Position numbers and translations under genes: made by a program
Part shown: positions 31,575 to 45,706 of the stretch, one piece after another
How the letters are laid out: every line of letters begins with the position of its first letter
How positions within the stretch are numbered: the first letter of the stretch is position 1
Virus record (IMG/VR): IMGVR_UViG_3300027784_000004
DNA length: 64,000 bases
Direction: 5' to 3' (one strand)
Source: a virus
Notes under the pieces: generated by a model
What the model was told of the DNA's origin: nothing
Seen by the model: only the letters and a program-made list of their open reading frames with translations
Database searches by the model: none

Positions 31575-32552
31575 CTAGCCAATAGCGTTTTGAAAAAATA
31601 CGCCTAAATCATCAGCGACTACTTTCATATCCATTGCTAGTTCGCCTTCAATTCTGTCTGCGCCTAATTGCTCCATTCTAAATTGTCTAATTCTATTACC
31701 CATAGCCCCTGCGCCTAAGAAACCAGCCCAGCTAAAGGTATAACCTGCGCTAGGTTGTAATATAGAAGGTTGCGGGTTTGCATAAGCTAGTAAAGCGTGT
31801 TTGCCAAATACAAAATTCATATCAGCATCAGCGCCAGCATTAGCTACATTTTCTGTACCCCACGCTATTAATACCCTATCTACATCAAACAAGCCTGCTA
31901 GTATATCACTAGTAACAACGCCAGTTTGTGTATATTTTATTCTATCTAATATATCAGCGTGATTACTAAGCGCTGTATATACATAAGGTGATAAAACTAG
32001 TACATTAGGCTTAAAGCCTGTAAGTTCTGCAACTTCAACACTAGCATCACGAATATCTTCAATAGGTGTACTATCAGCCTGATCCCATTGTTTAAACTCA
32101 CCTGCTGTAGGTGTGCCAGTAACGCCATCTAGTTCAGTTGCCCAAACACCAGCTGTGAAGTAGCTATTAGCCCATAACTTTTCACGCTTTAATAACATCA
32201 TTTGTGTTACCCACTCTGTAGCATCTCTATCCATATTGATAACATCATCAGCATTAGCCCTAATTTGGTCATCAACATCTTTATGAATAGCAAAAACATC
32301 AGCATAATAAGTAGGTGTGTTATCAAGCTTGTAGCCACCGCCTGCGCTTTCAGTCCCAGGCGCTCTTTTCTTAGCTACATCACGAAACCAATCTTCCCTT
32401 AAATATTTATAGTACCTATCACTTTTTTTCTGTACAGGTATGTTTGGAAAAACCTCTGTAGCAATAAAGTTTTCTGCATCTTGCATATATGCAATACTTA
32501 TTTGTGTTAGAGGTTGATTAACATGTACCTGATTAATAGTAGGATTTGCCAT
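31575..32552 (-). CDS. Major capsid protein (HK97 fold)
   Basis: HVNQPLTQISIAY, IATEVFP.IPV; position after decoration and scaffold genes. Confidence 0.9.
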   Translation of the reverse strand: MANPTINQVHVNQPLTQISIAYMQDAENFIATEVFPNIPVQKKSDRYYKYLREDWFRDVAKKRAPGTESAGGGYKLDNTPTYYADVFAIHKDVDDQIRANADDVINMDRDATEWVTQMMLLKREKLWANSYFTAGVWATELDGVTGTPTAGEFKQWDQADSTPIEDIRDASVEVAELTGFKPNVLVLSPYVYTALSNHADILDRIKYTQTGVVTSDILAGLFDVDRVLIAWGTENVANAGADADMNFVFGKHALLAYANPQPSILQPSAGYTFSWAGFLGAGAMGNRIRQFRMEQLGADRIEGELAMDMKVVADDLGVFFQNAIG

Positions 32553-32593: not shown

Positions 32594-32962
32594 TTATACT
32601 TCTAAGCGTGAAGATTTTAGTAAAACGCTACCAATTTCATCTACACCAGCGCCAACAACCGCTACACCTAAGATGTATTCACCTGCTACCGCTTCTTTTG
32701 CTTTACCATCTGCATCAACACTAACAACCGTACCTGCTTCTAATTCTGCGCCAAATACCATTTTTGTTATACCATAAACCATTACGCCTGCATATTGTTC
32801 ATCATCAGGCTCGCCCTGTAAAACACCAATGCTAAATTCACCATCAGCAGTAGGCAAAGCTATTTGTTCATTTGCATCAATCACCACGCCTAAAAACTGC
32901 GCATTACTTAAATCAACACTTGATTCAAAGCTTGCACTTAGAACTTTCATAAAATAAGCCAT
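32594..32962 (-). CDS. Capsid cement/decoration protein (DUF2190-like)
   Basis: SIGVLQ..P, GITKMV.GAEL.AG..V. Confidence 0.8.
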   Translation of the reverse strand: MAYFMKVLSASFESSVDLSNAQFLGVVIDANEQIALPTADGEFSIGVLQGEPDDEQYAGVMVYGITKMVFGAELEAGTVVSVDADGKAKEAVAGEYILGVAVVGAGVDEIGSVLLKSSRLEV

Positions 32963-33034: not shown

Positions 33035-34093
33035 TTATTTGCTGTTTTCTTCTTGCATATACTGCAAGTACAATTCAGGGTTTTCAGTAATAATTTTAGA
33101 TACCGCCTGTGCTTCACTTATATTGGGATTATCTTTTGCATATTCCTTAGCAGACTTTTCAATCTTAGCCCATGCACCGCTAGTACCTTTACTATCACTA
33201 CCAACCTCCTTAAATAGTTCGCTCTCATTTATCTGCCCATTTAATGCTTTTAGCAAGCCTTCAAGCTGTGTATATTCATCAGGTGCTTTCTCGTGTATGC
33301 TCTTTAATAACTTACCAAATTCAGCGCTTTCAACAGGCAAAGTGCCAAATTCTGTTTTAGCTTTATCAATGAACTCTTTTTCAATTTTTTCATCTTCAAG
33401 CCTACTAGCTTTTTCAGCAGTTTCTTTATGCTCTTTATAAAGCTTCTCAATGATAGGCTTAACATTATCAGGCATCTTTTCTAAGCTTTTTTCTATATCC
33501 ATTTCCATTTCATCACCCCCTGTGCCAGCTTGTTCTTCTGCATCAGCTAATACTTCTAATACATCAACAGGTGATAAACCCTCATACTCTCTACTAATAA
33601 CACCAGCAAGTACAGTTCTATCTTGCGGTTCTGTAGGGTCTATTGCATTAATAAACTCTAATGCTTCGCCAGTAGTAATATCCCATATACCAGCAAGTTC
33701 ACCAGCTAAACTTCTTCTATCCATTTCCTGTTTATTGATAAAAGAAAGCAACTCTTTTTCATCATAATCACCAGCTTTAGAAAGAAGTTTAGCCATGCTA
33801 CCTAGCAAATCTTTTGGTAATACATCAGCATAGGTTTGCACTATTTTAAGCATATTCCTAAGCGCATAAGCGCCTTCATCATTAATATCAATCTCTTTTA
33901 TTACCTTTTCTACCTCACTTTCATTTTCAATTTTACTCTCTAATATTTCTTTAATAATATTATCCATGTTGACACCTCCGTTTTTTGCTTTTAACATTAA
34001 AAATTCTCTTTCATTAGCAGGCTCACCTACAATAGATACCTCATAAACCTTAGCATCTAATATCTCACTAACATCTTTTTTAAGTTCAGCCAT
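33035..34093 (-). CDS. Capsid scaffolding protein
   Basis: N-terminal EVSIVGEPAN motif, coiled coil, LFKEVGS. Confidence 0.75.
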   Translation of the reverse strand: MAELKKDVSEILDAKVYEVSIVGEPANEREFLMLKAKNGGVNMDNIIKEILESKIENESEVEKVIKEIDINDEGAYALRNMLKIVQTYADVLPKDLLGSMAKLLSKAGDYDEKELLSFINKQEMDRRSLAGELAGIWDITTGEALEFINAIDPTEPQDRTVLAGVISREYEGLSPVDVLEVLADAEEQAGTGGDEMEMDIEKSLEKMPDNVKPIIEKLYKEHKETAEKASRLEDEKIEKEFIDKAKTEFGTLPVESAEFGKLLKSIHEKAPDEYTQLEGLLKALNGQINESELFKEVGSDSKGTSGAWAKIEKSAKEYAKDNPNISEAQAVSKIITENPELYLQYMQEENSK

Positions 34094-34185
34094 CTAAACA
34101 CCACCTTTTTTAAGGCAAAATAAAAAACTAACATATTTTGTTAGTTTAATAATTAACGATATTGAATTTATAAGCTTTACTTGCC

Positions 34186-36306
34186 TTACCTATTAACACG
34201 CTTACCCATAGCCCCTATAGAAAAGCCTGTAAAATCACCCCTTTTAATTTTTTTCCATTTTTCATTATCTAATATCTTAACAGCCATAACCCAACTACCT
34301 TTTTTAACATTGCCTTTGCCTAGTTTAAAGCTAACAGGCGCTATATAACTTTCTAATATTCTAGCTTCACTAAATGTTTTTTTGTGACTTAAGCCTATAG
34401 TTTGTGAATTTAACATATAGAAATGACAGCTTTTCTCAATTTCTTCTGCACTCATAATATCATTATGTGCATCTATTGTATCAGGCTCTAAAACTACACC
34501 ATAGATTATTTGTTTATCATCAATACTTTTAACTATTTTACATTCAATCTTTTTTTTTACCTTGCCAGTATCATCATCACCTTTATTATCTTCTAAGCTT
34601 TTTTTAACATGCTTAATTTTTCTATCAACTTCACCAAAATCACCCATTTTATATAGCGCTACAGGGTGTGGTAGTTTAAAATCTGCATCTTTTAATAAAT
34701 GCCTGTAAGCCTTATTACCTAAAGCTACAATATATTTAGGATTTACTTCTTTAATCTTGCTTATAAACCAATCGCTATAGCTTATAATTTCATCATTAGT
34801 TGGTTGTCTTAAGTAGCCATATTTATTATGCTTTGCTACGGGTACTAAATTAATTATATAAGTATCTTCTTTACTTAAGCCTAAAGGCTCTAAGTATTTA
34901 TCTTTAAATATCTTACCTGCTTTACCTGTAAGTGGCTCTTTTCTTAATACATCTTTATCACTAGGTGATGCACCTATAAAAGCTATACTAGCATTTTCAT
35001 CACCATATGGTGGTACATCAACTACCTGTAATGGTGAAGGTACATTTACATCACCTACGGTTATCTTCTTTTGTTTTTTATCTTCTCTATCAGGTGAAGT
35101 AGGTTTTTTGATGTAATAAGTAGCCACCTTTTTATGCTCTTTTTCAACATCTATAAAGGCTTTGAAAACTTTTATAAGCCTATCTTCGCTAGCTTGCATT
35201 ATAGATGTTTTATAGTGTTCTATCGCCTTTCTTTCTGCCATATATGCAAGCATAAAGTTTTCTTTATCGCTTTGTGCGCACTCTACATCATCAGGCAAAT
35301 CAGGTATTTCAACACCCATCATTTCTGCTAATTCATCTTTATGTTTTTCTTCGTGCCTTGCAAGCCTTCTAAAATAGCTTTCACTTATCCTATTTTCTGC
35401 ATTATCTGCCATGCATCTATAAACTGATTCACAATATGCTTCTAATTCTAAAGCCTTTTGTGTATTTTCAGCGCTAACCTCACTTAAACTTATTTGCTCA
35501 TAGTGTATATAATCTTTAGGTATTACTAAATATTTTTCTTTTACGCCACAATGTGCGCATCTATCAGGCTTTTTATAGCCAAGATATACATAACCGCAAA
35601 TATCGCAACGCCACGCCTTAAATTTTTTATATTTATATTTATCTTTATCAATAGGATTATTCCATGGAACGCTTATTTGTTCATCATCAAATTCTTCTGC
35701 CATTCTATCATATAATTCTTCAACTCTAGCCCTTACCCTATCTTCATCATCAGCAGGTATATCAACACCGCCCATAGCCCCTTGCAGTACACCAGCTATA
35801 GTAAATACTGCACTAGGTATTATATGTGGCTCACCATCTATAATATCAACATATGGTAGCTTGTAACCGCCTATTTGTTCTTGCAGTTGTTCATCATACC
35901 AAAGGTGTGCTTGCCTAAATTGCGCCCATTGTTCGCTATCCCATTGCTCAAAATCACCATCATTACCTATATATTGCCTAACTCTACCGCCAGCGCCAAC
36001 AGCATCTTCCATATCCCAAGTTCTATCTCTGCTAGCTAAAGGGTAATCAGGCAAAGTAGGTACAGCTTTATCTATATCATCATCAGGGTTATCACCTTCT
36101 ATATAATCTTCCCAATAACTTAAAGCCACCTCATAGCGCTGTTCTTCATCAGGGAAATCTTCAAGCGCTTCTTCATCAGCCATAAACCTATTTATAAAAT
36201 CTTCTCTTGTTTCTTCTGCTCTAGGTTCAGGCTTAAAAATAGCATCTGTATCATTAGTGCTAAAAGTATCTAAAAAATTCTTAAATAACTTGCTAATATT
36301 ACCCAC
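34186..36306 (-). CDS. Multidomain prohead protease: two phage head-associated domains, rubredoxin/ferritin-like unit, UDG-like domain, XkdF-type serine protease
   Basis: CDIC/CAHC, ExxH di-iron motifs, IAFIGASP..EPLTGKAG, YGVVLEPD..DAH.D..GFSIG. Confidence 0.85.
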   Translation of the reverse strand: MGNISKLFKNFLDTFSTNDTDAIFKPEPRAEETREDFINRFMADEEALEDFPDEEQRYEVALSYWEDYIEGDNPDDDIDKAVPTLPDYPLASRDRTWDMEDAVGAGGRVRQYIGNDGDFEQWDSEQWAQFRQAHLWYDEQLQEQIGGYKLPYVDIIDGEPHIIPSAVFTIAGVLQGAMGGVDIPADDEDRVRARVEELYDRMAEEFDDEQISVPWNNPIDKDKYKYKKFKAWRCDICGYVYLGYKKPDRCAHCGVKEKYLVIPKDYIHYEQISLSEVSAENTQKALELEAYCESVYRCMADNAENRISESYFRRLARHEEKHKDELAEMMGVEIPDLPDDVECAQSDKENFMLAYMAERKAIEHYKTSIMQASEDRLIKVFKAFIDVEKEHKKVATYYIKKPTSPDREDKKQKKITVGDVNVPSPLQVVDVPPYGDENASIAFIGASPSDKDVLRKEPLTGKAGKIFKDKYLEPLGLSKEDTYIINLVPVAKHNKYGYLRQPTNDEIISYSDWFISKIKEVNPKYIVALGNKAYRHLLKDADFKLPHPVALYKMGDFGEVDRKIKHVKKSLEDNKGDDDTGKVKKKIECKIVKSIDDKQIIYGVVLEPDTIDAHNDIMSAEEIEKSCHFYMLNSQTIGLSHKKTFSEARILESYIAPVSFKLGKGNVKKGSWVMAVKILDNEKWKKIKRGDFTGFSIGAMGKRVNR

Positions 36307-36337: not shown

Positions 36338-36928
36338 TTATTCAAAATTAACAAAACCTTCTATTTCTTCTTCATACCAGCCAAAAGCCACCCTAGCCAG
36401 CCCTTCATCTGTCTCATGCAAAACTAAACCTATAGCTTTAGAAGGTGGTACAATATATTTACCATCTTCATTACTTATAATAGTTGTATAATCTCTTGTT
36501 TGCCTTGTAAAACCCCTTATACCTCCAAAGTTTTCAATGCTTTCAATTAAGCCATCATTGTACCTTATTTGTGCTTTAGGCTCGCTAACAGGCTCAATTA
36601 AATTAGTACAAGTTATATTTTCACTTATAGTGTAGTTTTGAGTTTCATCTATATCAAAAATAAACTCTATATTAAATGGTATTTCTCCTGCCCCTTGCCT
36701 TGCTAAAAAATTAGTAACAGTCCAAGTATTTAAAAAAAGATATACACCTGAATTAGCAGGATTATGCAAAATACAGTATGCTATATTTTCCCCACCAAAA
36801 GTTAAATCTTCACTTTGACCTAAAAAATATTTCTTTTCTAAACTTAACCTTCTCAAATTATTATCTTTAATATTTAAAGAATGAATTATGTTATATCCTC
36901 TGTGATTTTCAGGCAACCTTATCACCAC
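36338..36928 (-). CDS. DUF6143-like protein
   Basis: KYFLGQSE.LTFG...NP.NSGV.LFLN..TVTNF. Confidence 0.6.
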   Translation of the reverse strand: MVIRLPENHRGYNIIHSLNIKDNNLRRLSLEKKYFLGQSEDLTFGGENIAYCILHNPANSGVYLFLNTWTVTNFLARQGAGEIPFNIEFIFDIDETQNYTISENITCTNLIEPVSEPKAQIRYNDGLIESIENFGGIRGFTRQTRDYTTIISNEDGKYIVPPSKAIGLVLHETDEGLARVAFGWYEEEIEGFVNFE

Positions 36929-36939
36929 CTTTTTTAATT

Positions 36940-37608
36940 TTAATCTTTTTGGTTAACTTGCCCTAAATGATACTTTTCTAAAAAATCATATTCACTCATA
37001 TTATGTAGTTCGCTGTGGTGTATTCTACAAAGTGGTATAACTTCCCTACCTTCATTATCTACTTTCTTTCTATTATTACCCATGCCAATTCTGCTACCTT
37101 CTAAATGGTGTTCTTCGCTATCTCTACCGCAAATACAACATATTTCTTGCTTTAGGCAAATAGCTATATATCTTTCAATATCATCAATAATATTTTTAGG
37201 GTGTTCTTGTAACTCTACACCATATTCAAAAGCAAATATTAGTAAAAATTCTATAAAATCACTAGCTAATACTTTGCCACATGTGCTTAAACTAAAAATT
37301 TCATACTGTATATTCTCTTTTAGAAATTCTTTCTTTAAATTCTCTTTTGTATATGCCTTGTTTGCACCTGTGCCATCTGCAATATCGCTTATTAAAGCGT
37401 ATATTTTTTTTCTTTGCTGTGGCGTTATCATATCAAGTTTTTCATTTTCTAATTTAGTGTTAACTTCAAAATCAACAATCAAAAATTTATCCATAAAATT
37501 ATATATCTCTTTTAATACGCTTTTTACGTTATCATCTTCAATAGCAAGTGTGATTTTCATTCCCTTTTTTAAAGTTTTAACATTATCTATTTCACATGTA
37601 AATCTCAT
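36940..37608 (-). CDS. Putative HNHc-type nuclease
   Basis: CCICG...HH...IGMG.NR...IPLCR.HH.E.H. Confidence 0.8.
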   Translation of the reverse strand: MRFTCEIDNVKTLKKGMKITLAIEDDNVKSVLKEIYNFMDKFLIVDFEVNTKLENEKLDMITPQQRKKIYALISDIADGTGANKAYTKENLKKEFLKENIQYEIFSLSTCGKVLASDFIEFLLIFAFEYGVELQEHPKNIIDDIERYIAICLKQEICCICGRDSEEHHLEGSRIGMGNNRKKVDNEGREVIPLCRIHHSELHNMSEYDFLEKYHLGQVNQKD

Positions 37609-43839: not shown

Positions 43840-45132
43840 TTATGGCTTGTTTTTATTATTTAAATTATAGTTTTCATATTTTTCATTAGGCTCTTTTAGT
43901 CTATGTAGTAGCTTGTTTTGCTTTAAATATAGCTTAAAGTTATCAAAGCTATCAGCTTTATTTGTATCATCAGGCTGTTTACCAAGCCTAATAGCTTCAT
44001 CAGGGTTGCACCTATGAAATACCCCTCTAAAAGCACTTCTTGCCATGCTCCTTGTAGGTAATACTCTAATTCTAGTGTTCTTACTACTAAAAACTTTAAA
44101 AGCCCTTTTAGTATCACAAAAATTTAGATTAATTTCTTTATCATGATAAGGTGTGTGTGGTATAGGGTCAAAGTATGTAAGTTTTACTATCATTTTAGGT
44201 GATTTATCACTATCAGCAGGTAATATATTAGTGAATTTTTCTACATCTTTCATACTCCAATCATCTTTACCCACGATAAAAAATAATTCGCAAGTTTGTT
44301 TATGCTCTTTAGTTTGTTTGATAAGCTTTCTAATATTTTCATCTTTAATAGGCTTACCATAATCTTTGCGCTCTTTCTCACTCCAACCTTCTATGCCAAA
44401 GTGTAACATATTAGCCTTATATCTTAATGGCTCTATAATATAATCTTCTACCCTAACGCTCTGTGCGCTAACTGCCTTACTCTCTATAACAGTATTACTA
44501 TCATTAGTTATTAAAGTTATCTTACCATATTTCTTTTTTTCTATACAATTAACTACTTTTTTAAGCCTGTGCTTATTAACTTCTTGTAACGGTTGAATCC
44601 AACTAGTAGCGCAAAACTTACATTTTCTTTTGCACCCCTTAGCGCTTAAATAATAAAATCTATTCCTGCCAGTTAACTTTACTAAAGGGAAATCTTTAAA
44701 TACTATATTATAACTAGGTGTAACTTTATCATTTTCACTTTTCATAACACAATCTAAATTTAAAGCCTTATTATAATCTTCACCCCACGCCTTAATAAAA
44801 TCATAGCCTTCACCCACTACAACATAATCAACCCATGCAAAATAAGGTATAGCAAAATAACTTTCAAAACCACCCATAACTATAGGCTTTTCAGGGTTTT
44901 GCTCTCTTAACTTAATTAATACATTCAAATCATCTACATCACAAATACTAACCCAAATAAAATCAGCATCTTTAACACAATCTACTAAATTAACACCAAA
45001 CTTATTGCATAAATGCCTAAGCGCACTCATGCTATATAGGTTTATAGATTTACTATGTGAAGTTAAAAATACTTTAGGTGTTGATAAACCAGTTTGCAAA
45101 CCTTTCAAGCGCTTCATCTTCTTCATCACCAA
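43840..45132 (-). CDS. Radical SAM enzyme with an N-terminal cobalamin-binding-like domain
   Basis: GCKRKCKFC (CxxxCxxC), IVMGG...DYVVVGEG, FGIEG, P.PHTP. Confidence 0.9.
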   Translation of the reverse strand: MVMKKMKRLKGLQTGLSTPKVFLTSHSKSINLYSMSALRHLCNKFGVNLVDCVKDADFIWVSICDVDDLNVLIKLREQNPEKPIVMGGFESYFAIPYFAWVDYVVVGEGYDFIKAWGEDYNKALNLDCVMKSENDKVTPSYNIVFKDFPLVKLTGRNRFYYLSAKGCKRKCKFCATSWIQPLQEVNKHRLKKVVNCIEKKKYGKITLITNDSNTVIESKAVSAQSVRVEDYIIEPLRYKANMLHFGIEGWSEKERKDYGKPIKDENIRKLIKQTKEHKQTCELFFIVGKDDWSMKDVEKFTNILPADSDKSPKMIVKLTYFDPIPHTPYHDKEINLNFCDTKRAFKVFSSKNTRIRVLPTRSMARSAFRGVFHRCNPDEAIRLGKQPDDTNKADSFDNFKLYLKQNKLLHRLKEPNEKYENYNLNNKNKP

Positions 45133-45706
45133 ATTTATTTTTTATTTTTTCAATAACTGCGCTAACTAAATCATAATCTAATACGCTAGAAAATGTACCA
45201 ATACTTATAACTAAATTAGTTTTGCCTGCTTGCATCATTCTTTTATCTCTAGTACTTTTTTCATTACTATTATCTACTATTTCAGGTAAATCACTCATAA
45301 TACCATCTATTTCATCTAAATTAAAACCAGTATCAAGCAAATTAATATCATCTTCATATTCTAACTTTTCAAATTCTATAGCTAATAATTCCATATCCCA
45401 ATCACTTTCAGCTACTTTATTATCAGCAATTCTATAAGCCCTTACCTGTGCATCATTTAAATCAACTCTTTTTATAACGGGTATTTCTTTTAACTCTAAC
45501 TTCTTACTAGCAAAATATCTGCCATGACCTGCTATTATCTCATTTTTCTTATCAATTATTATAGGCACGTTAAACCCATAATTTTTTATACTACTAGCTA
45601 TTTTATTAATCTGCTCTTTCTTATGCTCTTTAGGGTTTTCGTTATATGGTATAATTTTATCAATATCAATCATTTCAACTTTTATATTATCTTTAGTATC
45701 TGCCAT
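45074..45706 (-). CDS. ParB/sulfiredoxin N-terminal domain protein (no methyltransferase domain)
   Basis: IPYNENP, SIKNYGFNVPII, IIAGHGR, AYRIADNKVAE. Confidence 0.9.
   Translation of the reverse strand: MADTKDNIKVEMIDIDKIIPYNENPKEHKKEQINKIASSIKNYGFNVPIIIDKKNEIIAGHGRYFASKKLELKEIPVIKRVDLNDAQVRAYRIADNKVAESDWDMELLAIEFEKLEYEDDINLLDTGFNLDEIDGIMSDLPEIVDNSNEKSTRDKRMMQAGKTNLVISIGTFSSVLDYDLVSAVIEKIKNKFGDEEDEALERFANWFINT

What the first reader, a model, noticed from the sequence alone, without database searches (positions are those of the whole stretch)
34186..36306. Polyvalent prohead protease carrying redox and DNA-repair-like cargo into the head
Seen: one 706-aa ORF in the protease slot (MuF, protease, scaffold, decoration, capsid) with five domains: aa about 24-68 and 85-216 acidic phage head-associated domains, 229-398 rubredoxin plus ferritin-like, 428-570 UDG-like, 590-706 XkdF-type protease. 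Known: prohead proteases are co-assembled inside procapsids, and HK97-fold encapsulins load ferritin or rubrerythrin cargo. Inference: the protease fusion packages enzymes that protect the genome in the virion or act on ejection. I do not recognise this combination as described.
Basis: partly seen in the sequence, partly recalled or inferred. Interest (0 to 1): 0.9.

Follow-up and report, generated by a model that had tools for sequence, protein, structure and literature searches.

The report
Enzyme-carrying phage head protease polyprotein
One 706-residue phage head gene joins two head-associated modules, an intact-looking rubrerythrin and a uracil-DNA-glycosylase-like domain to the head-maturation protease. 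It probably loads these enzymes into the capsid; this kind of protein is known, but the iron-enzyme cargo and the apparent docking onto the scaffold protein are new.

Summary
All five domains were confirmed by Pfam and by two confident AlphaFold models. It is not an assembly chimera. Orthologues at 56-59% identity with the same architecture and gene order occur in other samples.

It belongs to the published class of phage "polyvalent proteins" (Iyer et al. 2017). This scan has already met XkdF-terminated versions on other DNA at least eight times.

- **UDG-like domain:** it is a conserved partner of the protease, not free cargo. At least 121 protein clusters have UDG-like followed by XkdF at the C-terminus.
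- **Rubrerythrin:** this is the rare cargo. Its four rubredoxin cysteines and its E/ExxH/E/ExxH di-iron set are invariant.
- **Protease strand:** the XkdF domain lacks a beta-strand motif that ordinary XkdF proteins carry. The motif sits at the N-terminus of the next gene, the scaffold, in all six loci checked. A complex model supports docking (score 0.85, best control 0.00).

Whether the domains are packaged, cleaved apart or ejected is untested. No cultured phage with the UDG-like domain beside a head protease was found.

The parts
34186..36306 (-). 706-aa polyvalent head protein (P0001), GTG start, stop codon at 34186-34188
36094..36237 (-). Module A (aa 24-71): small acidic helical module with a conserved F..RFM....FP.E.QR.AVA.S.WE pattern. 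It also occurs in P0007 and P0012, and tiny stand-alone phage proteins have the same fold.
35641..36072 (-). Module B (aa 79-222): a head-morphogenesis accessory domain with no solved fold match. Relatives are fused to HK97-type S78 proteases, XkdF, Mu-like protease I and MuF.
35530..35613 (-). Rubredoxin-like Cys4 knuckle (aa 232-259; C234, C237, C250, C253, invariant in the relatives that carry this segment)
35107..35481 (-). Four-helix-bundle di-iron (ferritin-like) domain (aa 276-400). Ligand set: E289 or E293, E319xxH322, E352, E388xxH391, invariant in 7 relatives. With the rubredoxin module in front, this is the 'reverse rubrerythrin' order.
35038..35094 (-). Disordered linker aa 405-423, followed at once by the recurrent junction motif (DVNVPSP, from aa 423)
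34582..35025 (-). UDG-superfamily domain (aa 428-575). Motif A reads GASPS, motif B reads LPHPxAL, and there are no cysteines. The C-terminal helix carries a conserved GE..RK.
34537..34575 (-). Disordered, lysine-rich linker (aa 578-590) before the protease
34189..34539 (-). XkdF-type (Peptidase_S78_2) prohead protease domain (aa 590-706), ending the protein. D612, H641 and S696 are invariant in 37 relatives.
33035..34093 (-). 352-aa scaffold-like protein (P0014)
33989..34078 (-). N-terminal strand motif of the scaffold (aa 6-35, core EVSIVGEPANxxxFLxLK), predicted to dock on the XkdF domain
32594..32962 (-). 122-aa cement/decoration-like protein
31575..32552 (-). Major capsid protein (phrog_1005, weak Phage_cap_E hit)
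36338..37608 (-). DUF6143 protein and HNHc_6 nuclease between MuF and the polyprotein; the same pair is present in the orthologous locus L003
37623..39846 (-). MuF-like head morphogenesis protein and Mu-type portal

Best explanation
This is a phage polyvalent head polyprotein laid out as beads on a string: module A, module B, a reverse rubrerythrin, a UDG-superfamily domain and a C-terminal XkdF-type serine protease.

Proposed mechanism:
1. (Inferred, supported by a model) The XkdF domain lacks the beta-strand motif that ordinary XkdF proteins carry in the same chain. The strand is supplied by the N-terminus of the scaffold protein encoded by the next gene. This contact would tether the polyprotein to the scaffold core, and so inside the assembling procapsid. 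Because the strand packs against the strand bearing the catalytic Ser, it may also complete or switch on the protease only after co-assembly.
2. (Inferred) The protease then cuts the scaffold and the exposed linkers of its own chain (about aa 72-78, 405-423 and 578-593), freeing the domains inside the head.
3. (Inferred by analogy with T4 internal proteins/Alt and with polyvalent proteins) The freed enzymes stay with the DNA and enter the host with it.

Likely roles:
- The rubrerythrin would remove peroxide or oxygen, or hold iron, for a phage from a salt-lake metagenome. If its host is an anaerobic spore-former, which was not checked here, this would protect the DNA.
- The UDG-like domain binds or processes damaged or unusual bases in the phage DNA, or simply anchors the protein to DNA.
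For: **Domains and linkers:**

**Intact-looking metal sites:** the Cys4 set and the E/ExxH/E/ExxH set are invariant in the relatives that carry them.

**Catalytic candidates:** D612, H641 and S696 are invariant in 37 XkdF domains.

**Only protease in the module:** no other head-module ORF scanned here gave a protease family hit.

**Same slot in relatives:** the relatives with long enough contigs sit between portal/MuF and scaffold/cement/capsid.

**Module shuffling with a fixed C-terminal protease:**
- P0004 has an extra domain; P0006 lacks Rbr; P0007 lacks module B and UDG.
- Longer relatives carry other domains. Of 40 scanned, 16 match ATP-dependent DNA ligase, 6 match 2_5_RNA_ligase2 and 4 LigT (2H phosphoesterases), about 5 match methyltransferases, and one each matches GNAT and Acb1.
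- Of 146 representatives with XkdF, 140 end within 40 residues of it; the median tail is 3 residues.

**Strand motif:**
- It lies N-terminal to XkdF in Bacillus phage BMBtp14 gp58, Lactococcus phage 28201 gp33, P0142 and P0128.
- It lies C-terminal to XkdF in P0120, P0091 and P0043.
- It lies at the start of the next gene in 6 of 6 polyprotein loci: the window, L003, L006, L008, L009 and L010.

**Complex model:** XkdF (aa 575-706) with scaffold aa 1-50 scored 0.85 (three runs: 0.85, 0.87, 0.85), and the best of 3 controls scored 0.00. In the tool's calibration this mark was reached by 58 of 80 solved complexes and 2 of 110 mismatched pairs; those counts hold only roughly here because my own alignments were used. 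The interface covers scaffold residues 6-26 and the C-terminal XkdF strand that bears S696.

**Precedent:** polyvalent proteins with a C-terminal virion-processing peptidase (PMC5512222).
Against: - There is no experimental evidence. No virion proteome exists, and tblastn with the UDG-like domain against 50,697 phage records matched only SPO1-type DNA polymerases and three unannotated uncultured-phage records.
- As far as I know, XkdF is a 'putative' protease that has not been characterised biochemically. No paper on it was found.
- The high complex score may only re-state the intramolecular packing seen in ordinary XkdF proteins, as the tool itself warns. It could also show a substrate sitting in the active-site cleft rather than a structural strand.
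- Prohead proteases and scaffolds are usually degraded and expelled, so the enzyme domains might also be lost before DNA packaging.
- Rubrerythrin needs an electron donor, and none is evident inside a capsid.
- UDG motif A has lost the family-4 Glu. The uracil-recognising Asn is present here but is not conserved across the family.
- No cleavage site is established. The VNVPSP-type junction motif occurs once per protein and not in the scaffold or capsid. [IVL]xK[SA] is only weakly enriched: 5 observed against 1.8 expected, P about 0.03, and 3 of the 5 lie inside folded helices.
Confidence: 0.6

Rival explanations
1. The fusion is for co-expression only. The enzymes work in the cytoplasm late in infection, for example cleaning the replicating DNA pool and detoxifying peroxide. 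The protease frees them there, and only the protease domain, if anything, enters the procapsid.
For: - The domains are joined by long disordered linkers, so they could be cut apart early.
- Rubrerythrin needs a cytoplasmic reductant (general knowledge).
- UDG-like domains are also fused to replication enzymes in SPO1-type phages.
Against: - The gene lies inside the head operon, not among replication genes.
- The protease is always the last domain, next to a scaffold that carries its missing strand. That fits release after assembly better than before it.
- Relatives carry classic injected-effector domains such as 2H/Acb1, methyltransferases and GNAT.
Confidence: 0.15
2. The UDG-like domain, and perhaps the rubrerythrin, is not an enzyme here. 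It would be a structural or regulatory part of the assembly machine, for example a DNA-sensing or DNA-anchoring module that times protease action or exit, and it would be degraded and expelled with the scaffold.
For: - UDG-like followed by XkdF is a fixed pair in at least 121 clusters, while other domains vary.
- Motif A reads GASPS instead of GEAPG, there are no Fe-S cysteines, the stacking Phe is replaced by Leu, and the Asn is not conserved across the family.
Against: - The motif-B His-Pro and several pocket-forming segments are nearly invariant.
- Family 2 and family 5 UDGs work without the acidic residue (general knowledge).
- The rubrerythrin metal ligands are all invariant, which is hard to explain without metal binding.
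Confidence: 0.15
3. An encapsulin-like virion compartment: the ferritin-like domain mineralises or sequesters iron inside the HK97-fold shell, as encapsulin cargo does.
For: - The domain has a ferritin fold.
- The shell is HK97-like with an internal scaffold.
- A recent paper argues that procapsids and encapsulins interconvert (PMC13669383).
Against: - No encapsulin-type C-terminal loading peptide is present. The protein's C-terminus is the protease.
- The head must fill with DNA.
- The rubredoxin module points to electron transfer (peroxidase chemistry) rather than iron storage.
- This cargo is rare in the family: 3-4 of 150 representatives.
Confidence: 0.05
4. An assembly chimera or a mis-joined ORF.
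For: Only one sequencing run holds this exact DNA.
Against: - Logan's own assembly gives one clean contig across the whole ORF.
- Three other clusters at 56-59% identity have the same domain order, and P0003 also has the same neighbours, on contigs from three runs.
Confidence: 0.02

Closest known systems
Phage polyvalent proteins (Iyer, Burroughs, Anand, de Souza, Aravind 2017, PMC5512222)
   Same: - Several unrelated activities sit in one polypeptide.
- The gene lies in the late/head region of a phage with a portal-terminase system.
- A virion-processing peptidase sits at the C-terminus.
- The proposed fate is packaging and delivery with the DNA.
   Different: - The paper's text does not mention XkdF, rubrerythrin or ferritin, uracil-DNA glycosylase or DNA ligase. 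The C-terminal peptidase it names is 'assemblin-like'.
- The scaffold-borne strand is not described there.
Ordinary XkdF-type head maturation protease-scaffold proteins (Pfam PF14550; Bacillus phage BMBtp14 gp58, Lactococcus phage 28201 gp33)
   Same: - The protease domain matches at 41-45% identity.
- The gene sits in the same slot after portal and MuF.
   Different: - The ordinary proteins are strand motif + XkdF + coiled-coil tail in one chain of 350-400 aa.
- Here XkdF ends a 706-aa enzyme chain, and the strand plus the tail form a separate protein.
Reverse rubrerythrin of clostridia (rubredoxin module first; own knowledge) and classical rubrerythrin (PDB 1b71, 1ryt)
   Same: A Cys4 rubredoxin-like module plus a four-helix di-iron bundle with E, ExxH, E, ExxH.
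   Different: - It is embedded in a virion-module polyprotein.
- Sequence similarity to solved rubrerythrins is weak (E 0.014, confined to the Cys4 module).
- The Pfam scores are only just above their cutoffs.
Family 4 uracil-DNA glycosylases, UdgX, and the UDG-like N-terminal domain of SPO1-type DNA polymerases
   Same: - Same fold (Foldseek E 1.7e-9, TMt 0.67, rmsd 2.3 over 168 columns).
- The motif-B His-Pro is kept.
- Sequence E is about 1e-8.
   Different: - Motif A reads GASPS, not GE(A/Q)PG.
- There is no 4Fe-4S cysteine set.
- The domain is about 45 residues shorter.
- A family-specific C-terminal GE..RK helix is present.
T4 internal proteins/Alt with a capsid-targeting sequence, and encapsulin cargo-loading peptides (own knowledge)
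   Same: Non-structural proteins are brought into an HK97-fold shell by a short targeting element. In T4, the head protease then releases them.
   Different: - Here the targeting element appears to be the protease domain itself, docking on a scaffold strand.
- It is neither an N-terminal capsid-targeting sequence nor a C-terminal loading peptide.

Membership tests
Polyvalent proteins (phage type) | Two or more domains with disparate biochemical activities in one polypeptide | tested here: met
   Rubrerythrin, UDG-superfamily and serine protease domains, plus two accessory modules
Polyvalent proteins (phage type) | Encoded among virion/packaging genes of a portal-terminase phage | tested here: met
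   TerL, Mu-type portal and MuF lie upstream; scaffold, cement and capsid lie downstream
Polyvalent proteins (phage type) | Packaged in the head and delivered into the host with the DNA | not testable with these tools
   No isolate and no proteome. The only support is the predicted scaffold contact
XkdF / Peptidase_S78_2 prohead protease | Match to PF14550 above the curated cutoff | tested here: met
   110.1 bits against a cutoff of 24, covering profile positions 4-125 of 126
XkdF / Peptidase_S78_2 prohead protease | Conserved His and Ser (and Asp) candidates for catalysis | tested here: met
   D612, H641 and S696 are invariant in 37 sequences. Catalysis itself has not been shown for any member, to my knowledge
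XkdF / Peptidase_S78_2 prohead protease | Strand motif (.VS.V..AN...F...K) and scaffold-like tail in the same chain | tested here: not met
   Both lie on the next gene product, P0014
HK97-type S78 protease superfamily (relation of XkdF to it) | Significant profile similarity | tested here: inconclusive
   hhalign of the XkdF profile against a 3-sequence S78 profile gave E 0.051 and probability 1%, although His and Ser align in register
Rubrerythrin | Rubredoxin-type Cys4 site | tested here: met
   C234, C237, C250 and C253 are invariant in the relatives that carry this segment; RUBY_RBDX scores 28.3 against a cutoff of 26.5
Rubrerythrin | Di-iron ligands on a four-helix bundle | tested here: met
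   E289/E293, E319xxH322, E352 and E388xxH391 are invariant in 7 sequences; four long helices are modelled; ferritin fold matches were found
Rubrerythrin | Peroxidase activity with an electron donor | not testable with these tools
   -
Family 4 uracil-DNA glycosylase | Motif A GE(A/G)PG with the catalytic Glu | tested here: not met
   It reads GASPS; relatives read G/A-x-S/T-P-S/N/G
Family 4 uracil-DNA glycosylase | Four cysteines binding a 4Fe-4S cluster | tested here: not met
   There is no cysteine between aa 344 and 588
Family 4 uracil-DNA glycosylase | Motif B His-Pro and the UDG alpha/beta fold | tested here: met
   H547-P548 are nearly invariant; Foldseek TMt is 0.65-0.67 to 1ui1, 1l9g and 4zby
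Encapsulin cargo system | C-terminal cargo-loading peptide on the enzyme, and a shell without portal or DNA packaging | tested here: not met
   The C-terminus is the protease domain, and portal and terminase genes are present

The most novel reading that the evidence does not exclude
XkdF in these polyproteins is a naturally split protease. Its missing beta-strand is carried by the scaffold's N-terminus, so tethering, cargo loading and protease activation are all coupled to procapsid assembly.

This would be the general loading rule for a very large, unstudied class of enzyme-carrying head polyproteins: at least 121 clusters in this search alone.

In this phage it would place a working peroxide- or oxygen-detoxifying di-iron enzyme inside the virion. 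The host may be an anaerobic spore-former, but that was not checked here.
Probability: 0.3. Interest if true: 0.8.

Novelty: new variant of a known kind. Interest (0 to 1): 0.62.

Why it matters
**Loading rule.** If the scaffold-strand docking is real, it gives a simple, testable rule for how phages load arbitrary enzymes into HK97-fold capsids. The enzyme only has to be fused upstream of a strand-less XkdF domain. That rule could be borrowed for capsid engineering.

**Protease control.** It would also explain how the protease is kept quiet until assembly.

**New cargo.** I found no report of a redox or iron enzyme as phage head cargo. It hints that oxidative damage to packaged or newly injected DNA matters for this phage, whose host may be an anaerobe.

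**The UDG-like partner.** Its constant pairing with the protease, across more than a hundred clusters known only from metagenomes, marks an unstudied function at the heart of head maturation.

Tried and rejected
- **Plus-strand reading:** full of stops; the gene is on the minus strand.
- **Frameshift or read-through joining the ORF to the scaffold gene:** rejected. The two are in different frames and 92 nt apart, and the scaffold gene has its own AGGTGGTG ribosome-binding site. The split is conserved in six loci.
- **Intergenic hairpin as a terminator:** AT-rich, missed by the terminator scan, and its folding z-score is only -1.6. Not claimed.
- **Solved-structure match for the N-terminal 230 aa:** none at E <= 0.001. 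Only viral predicted models matched.
- **XkdF as a relative of HK97 S78 by profile comparison:** not significant (E 0.051).
- **LigD 3'-phosphoesterase in the insert between UDG and XkdF in long relatives:** 15.5 bits against a cutoff of 31.1. A lead only.
- **VNVPSP-type junction motif as a general cleavage site:** it is absent from the scaffold, capsid and other ORFs.
- **Known-phage identity:** no megablast match for 20 kb of the head region.
- **Whole-genome search:** no genome is held for this window.
- **Literature:** no hits for XkdF with scaffold and protease, for PF14550, or for rubrerythrin with prohead protease. PMC421614 is not held.
- **Contig look-up for P0019:** not on record.
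Full report
**1. Observation**

The 34186-36306 interval holds one 706-codon ORF, but on the minus strand. The plus strand is closed. It starts with GTG, 8 nt after AGGAGG.

Pfam finds four domains above their curated cutoffs:
- rubredoxin-like RUBY_RBDX, aa 232-259;
- Rubrerythrin, aa 282-394;
- UDG, aa 432-552;
- Peptidase_S78_2/XkdF, aa 590-704.

PHROGs places the last domain in head maturation protease families. The first 230 residues have no Pfam match. They still fold with mean pLDDT 85.8 into a small helical module (A, about aa 24-71) and a larger mixed module (B, about aa 79-222), separated by a disordered stretch at aa 72-78.

The model of aa 225-706 has mean pLDDT 86.0 but pTM 0.41. 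It shows three rigid domains joined by two disordered linkers, aa 405-423 and 578-593. Foldseek confirms the UDG fold (1ui1: E 1.7e-9, target-normalised TM-score (TMt) 0.67) and the ferritin fold.

**2. Context**

Reading the minus strand, the order is TerL, 152-aa ORF, 401-aa virion protein, Mu-type portal, MuF-like protein, HNHc_6 nuclease, DUF6143, the polyprotein, a 352-aa scaffold-like protein, a 122-aa cement-like protein and the major capsid protein. None of the neighbouring head-module ORFs that I scanned gave a protease family hit.

The window has about 30% G+C and is almost entirely transcribed on one strand. It matches no deposited phage at the DNA level. The only run holding it is a salt-lake metagenome.

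**3. Not a chimera**

Logan's separate assembly of that run spans the ORF in one clean contig. This uses the same data, so it is not independent.

The stronger evidence is independent orthologues. P0003 (712 aa, 59% identity), P0004 (775 aa) and P0005 (708 aa) have the same domain order. P0003 lies on three contigs from three runs, with the same neighbours: portal, MuF-like, HNHc_6, DUF6143, polyprotein, scaffold, cement, capsid.

**4. A modular family**

Close relatives shuffle the upstream modules but keep XkdF last:
- P0004 has an extra domain of about 70 aa.
- P0006 has that domain at its N-terminus and lacks the rubrerythrin.
- P0007 has only module A, rubrerythrin and XkdF.
- P0008 and P0009 have a different N-terminus, then UDG-like and XkdF.

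An exhaustive phmmer search gave 9169 hits, 195 of them with E < 1e-30. I built HMMs from my own alignments and scanned the 150 best representatives:
- 121 have UDG-like followed by XkdF.
- 140 of the 146 with XkdF end within 40 residues of it; the median tail is 3 residues.
- Only this protein's own cluster has module B, rubrerythrin, UDG-like and XkdF together.
- Two more have rubrerythrin and XkdF.

The ranking favours proteins that share both C-terminal domains with the query, so 121 is a lower bound on clusters, not a frequency.

Forty long relatives (626-1628 aa) were scanned against Pfam. Sixteen match ATP-dependent DNA ligase, 6 match 2_5_RNA_ligase2 and 4 LigT (2H phosphoesterases), about 5 match methyltransferases, and single members match Acb1, GNAT and a D12 methylase. 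This is the usual polyvalent-protein repertoire. Two of these relatives (P0025 and P0068) occupy the same slot in their phages.

**5. State of the enzyme domains**

*Rubrerythrin.* The four cysteines (234, 237, 250, 253) are invariant in the relatives that carry that segment. The di-iron set (E289/E293, E319xxH322, E352, E388xxH391) is invariant in all seven sequences aligned. The rubredoxin module comes first, which is the 'reverse rubrerythrin' order (own knowledge).

*UDG-like domain.* It keeps the motif-B His-Pro, which is nearly invariant across 39 sequences. Motif A reads GASPS instead of GEAPG. The domain has no cysteines for a 4Fe-4S cluster, has Leu where family 4 has the stacking Phe, and its Asn is not conserved in the family. 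It is therefore a separate clade of the UDG superfamily, not a family-4 member, and activity is open.

Among 50,697 deposited phage records, this domain matches only the N-terminal domain of SPO1-type DNA polymerases and three unannotated uncultured-phage records.

**6. The displaced strand**

Ordinary XkdF proteins are built as a strand motif (.VS.VD.AAN...F.L.K), then XkdF, then a coiled-coil tail. Examples are Bacillus phage BMBtp14 gp58, Lactococcus phage 28201 gp33 and P0142.

The polyprotein has no such motif, and it ends 10 residues after the catalytic Ser. The next gene product begins with exactly this motif (core EVSIVGEPAN...FL.LK) followed by a scaffold-like tail.

The same holds in all six polyprotein loci examined: the window, L003, L006 (with one small gene in between), L008, L009 (where the genes overlap) and L010.

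Other natural arrangements exist:
- P0128: strand, module B, XkdF.
- P0120, P0091 and P0043: XkdF, then the strand.

So the motif always accompanies XkdF, but its position is free. That is expected for a strand that adds to a sheet.

A complex prediction of XkdF (aa 575-706) with scaffold aa 1-50 scored 0.85, and the best of three controls scored 0.00. This mark was reached by 58 of 80 solved complexes and 2 of 110 mismatched pairs; the counts hold only roughly here because my own alignments were used. The interface involves scaffold residues 6-26 and the C-terminal XkdF strand that carries S696. The tool warns that such a pass can reflect likeness to known packing, and here it may simply mirror the one-chain arrangement. 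That is still what the split-protein reading predicts. A substrate-in-cleft pose cannot be excluded.

**7. Module B**

Relatives of module B are fused to several head proteins: HK97-type S78 proteases on either side (P0010-P0012), a MuF/2H fusion (P0013), Streptomyces phage 'capsid maturation protease and MuF-like fusion' proteins, Mu-like protease I, and XkdF. No solved fold matches it. It is best described as a head-morphogenesis accessory domain, possibly a second procapsid anchor. Its function is unknown.

**8. Mechanism and its limits**

The most likely reading has three steps:
1. The scaffold strand docks on XkdF. This brings the polyprotein into the procapsid and may complete the active site.
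2. The protease cuts the scaffold and the exposed linkers.
3. The freed rubrerythrin and UDG-like domains remain with the DNA and enter the host.

Step 1 has modelling and comparative support. Steps 2 and 3 rest on analogy. Cleavage sites are not established.

**9. Comparison and novelty**

The kind is known: polyvalent proteins, including ones with a C-terminal virion-processing peptidase (PMC5512222). That paper's text mentions neither XkdF, UDG, rubrerythrin nor DNA ligase.

Earlier agents of this scan have reported XkdF-terminated polyproteins with methylase, ligase, Nudix or 2H cargo on other DNA. The class is therefore recurrent and this is not its first sighting.

Three things are new here:
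- the rubrerythrin cargo;
- the recognition that the UDG-like domain is a constant partner of the protease;
- the scaffold-borne strand as the probable loading and activation contact.

A 2026 paper speculates that procapsids might host cargo-like enzymes (PMC13669383). This locus is a concrete candidate.

Noticed in passing
window 36338-37608 (-) and L003 8734-9984: An HNHc_6/DUF968 nuclease and a DUF6143 protein sit between MuF and the polyprotein, in both the window and the orthologous contig. It is a conserved pair of unknown role inside the head operon.
   Followed up: partly
window 43840-45706 (-); L008 5127-6734: A ParB_N protein (42.8 bits) and a radical-SAM-like protein (25.2 bits, below the cutoff of 29.5) lie beside the terminase in the window. 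A distant relative's locus has a B12-binding radical SAM gene between MuF and its polyprotein. This may be DNA-modification chemistry that travels with these head polyproteins.
   Followed up: partly
P0001 aa 419-429 (window about 35020-35052); P0003 aa 21-32; P0004, P0006, P0007, P0019 junctions: A short motif (..PT.R.V[NHS]V[PD]SP..) recurs at different domain junctions in different relatives: before module A, before UDG, or before XkdF. It occurs once per protein, and in the loci scanned it was found in no other ORF. It could be a portable linker, a cleavage site or a recombination joint.
   Followed up: partly
P0025 aa 925-1215 and 37 other long relatives (alignment A2): Many long relatives carry a conserved insert of about 290 aa between UDG-like and XkdF (consensus HHWRG...H.HGDLR). 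It gives only a sub-threshold LigD 3'-phosphoesterase hit (15.5 bits against a cutoff of 31.1). Together with the frequent DNA ligase domain, this suggests a DNA-end repair kit.
   Followed up: partly
window 34094-34185 (-): An AT-rich hairpin followed by a T-run lies between the polyprotein gene and the scaffold gene. It is not significant by shuffling (z -1.6) and was missed by the terminator scan.
   Followed up: yes
P0019 aa 1-60; P0070 aa 32-60: In some relatives the place of module A is taken by a segment that looks ChaB-like to my eye (..LP..A...W..A.N.A......). No Pfam test was run on it.
   Followed up: no
L003 6050-6313: The orthologous phage contig carries a SpoVS gene.
   Followed up: no
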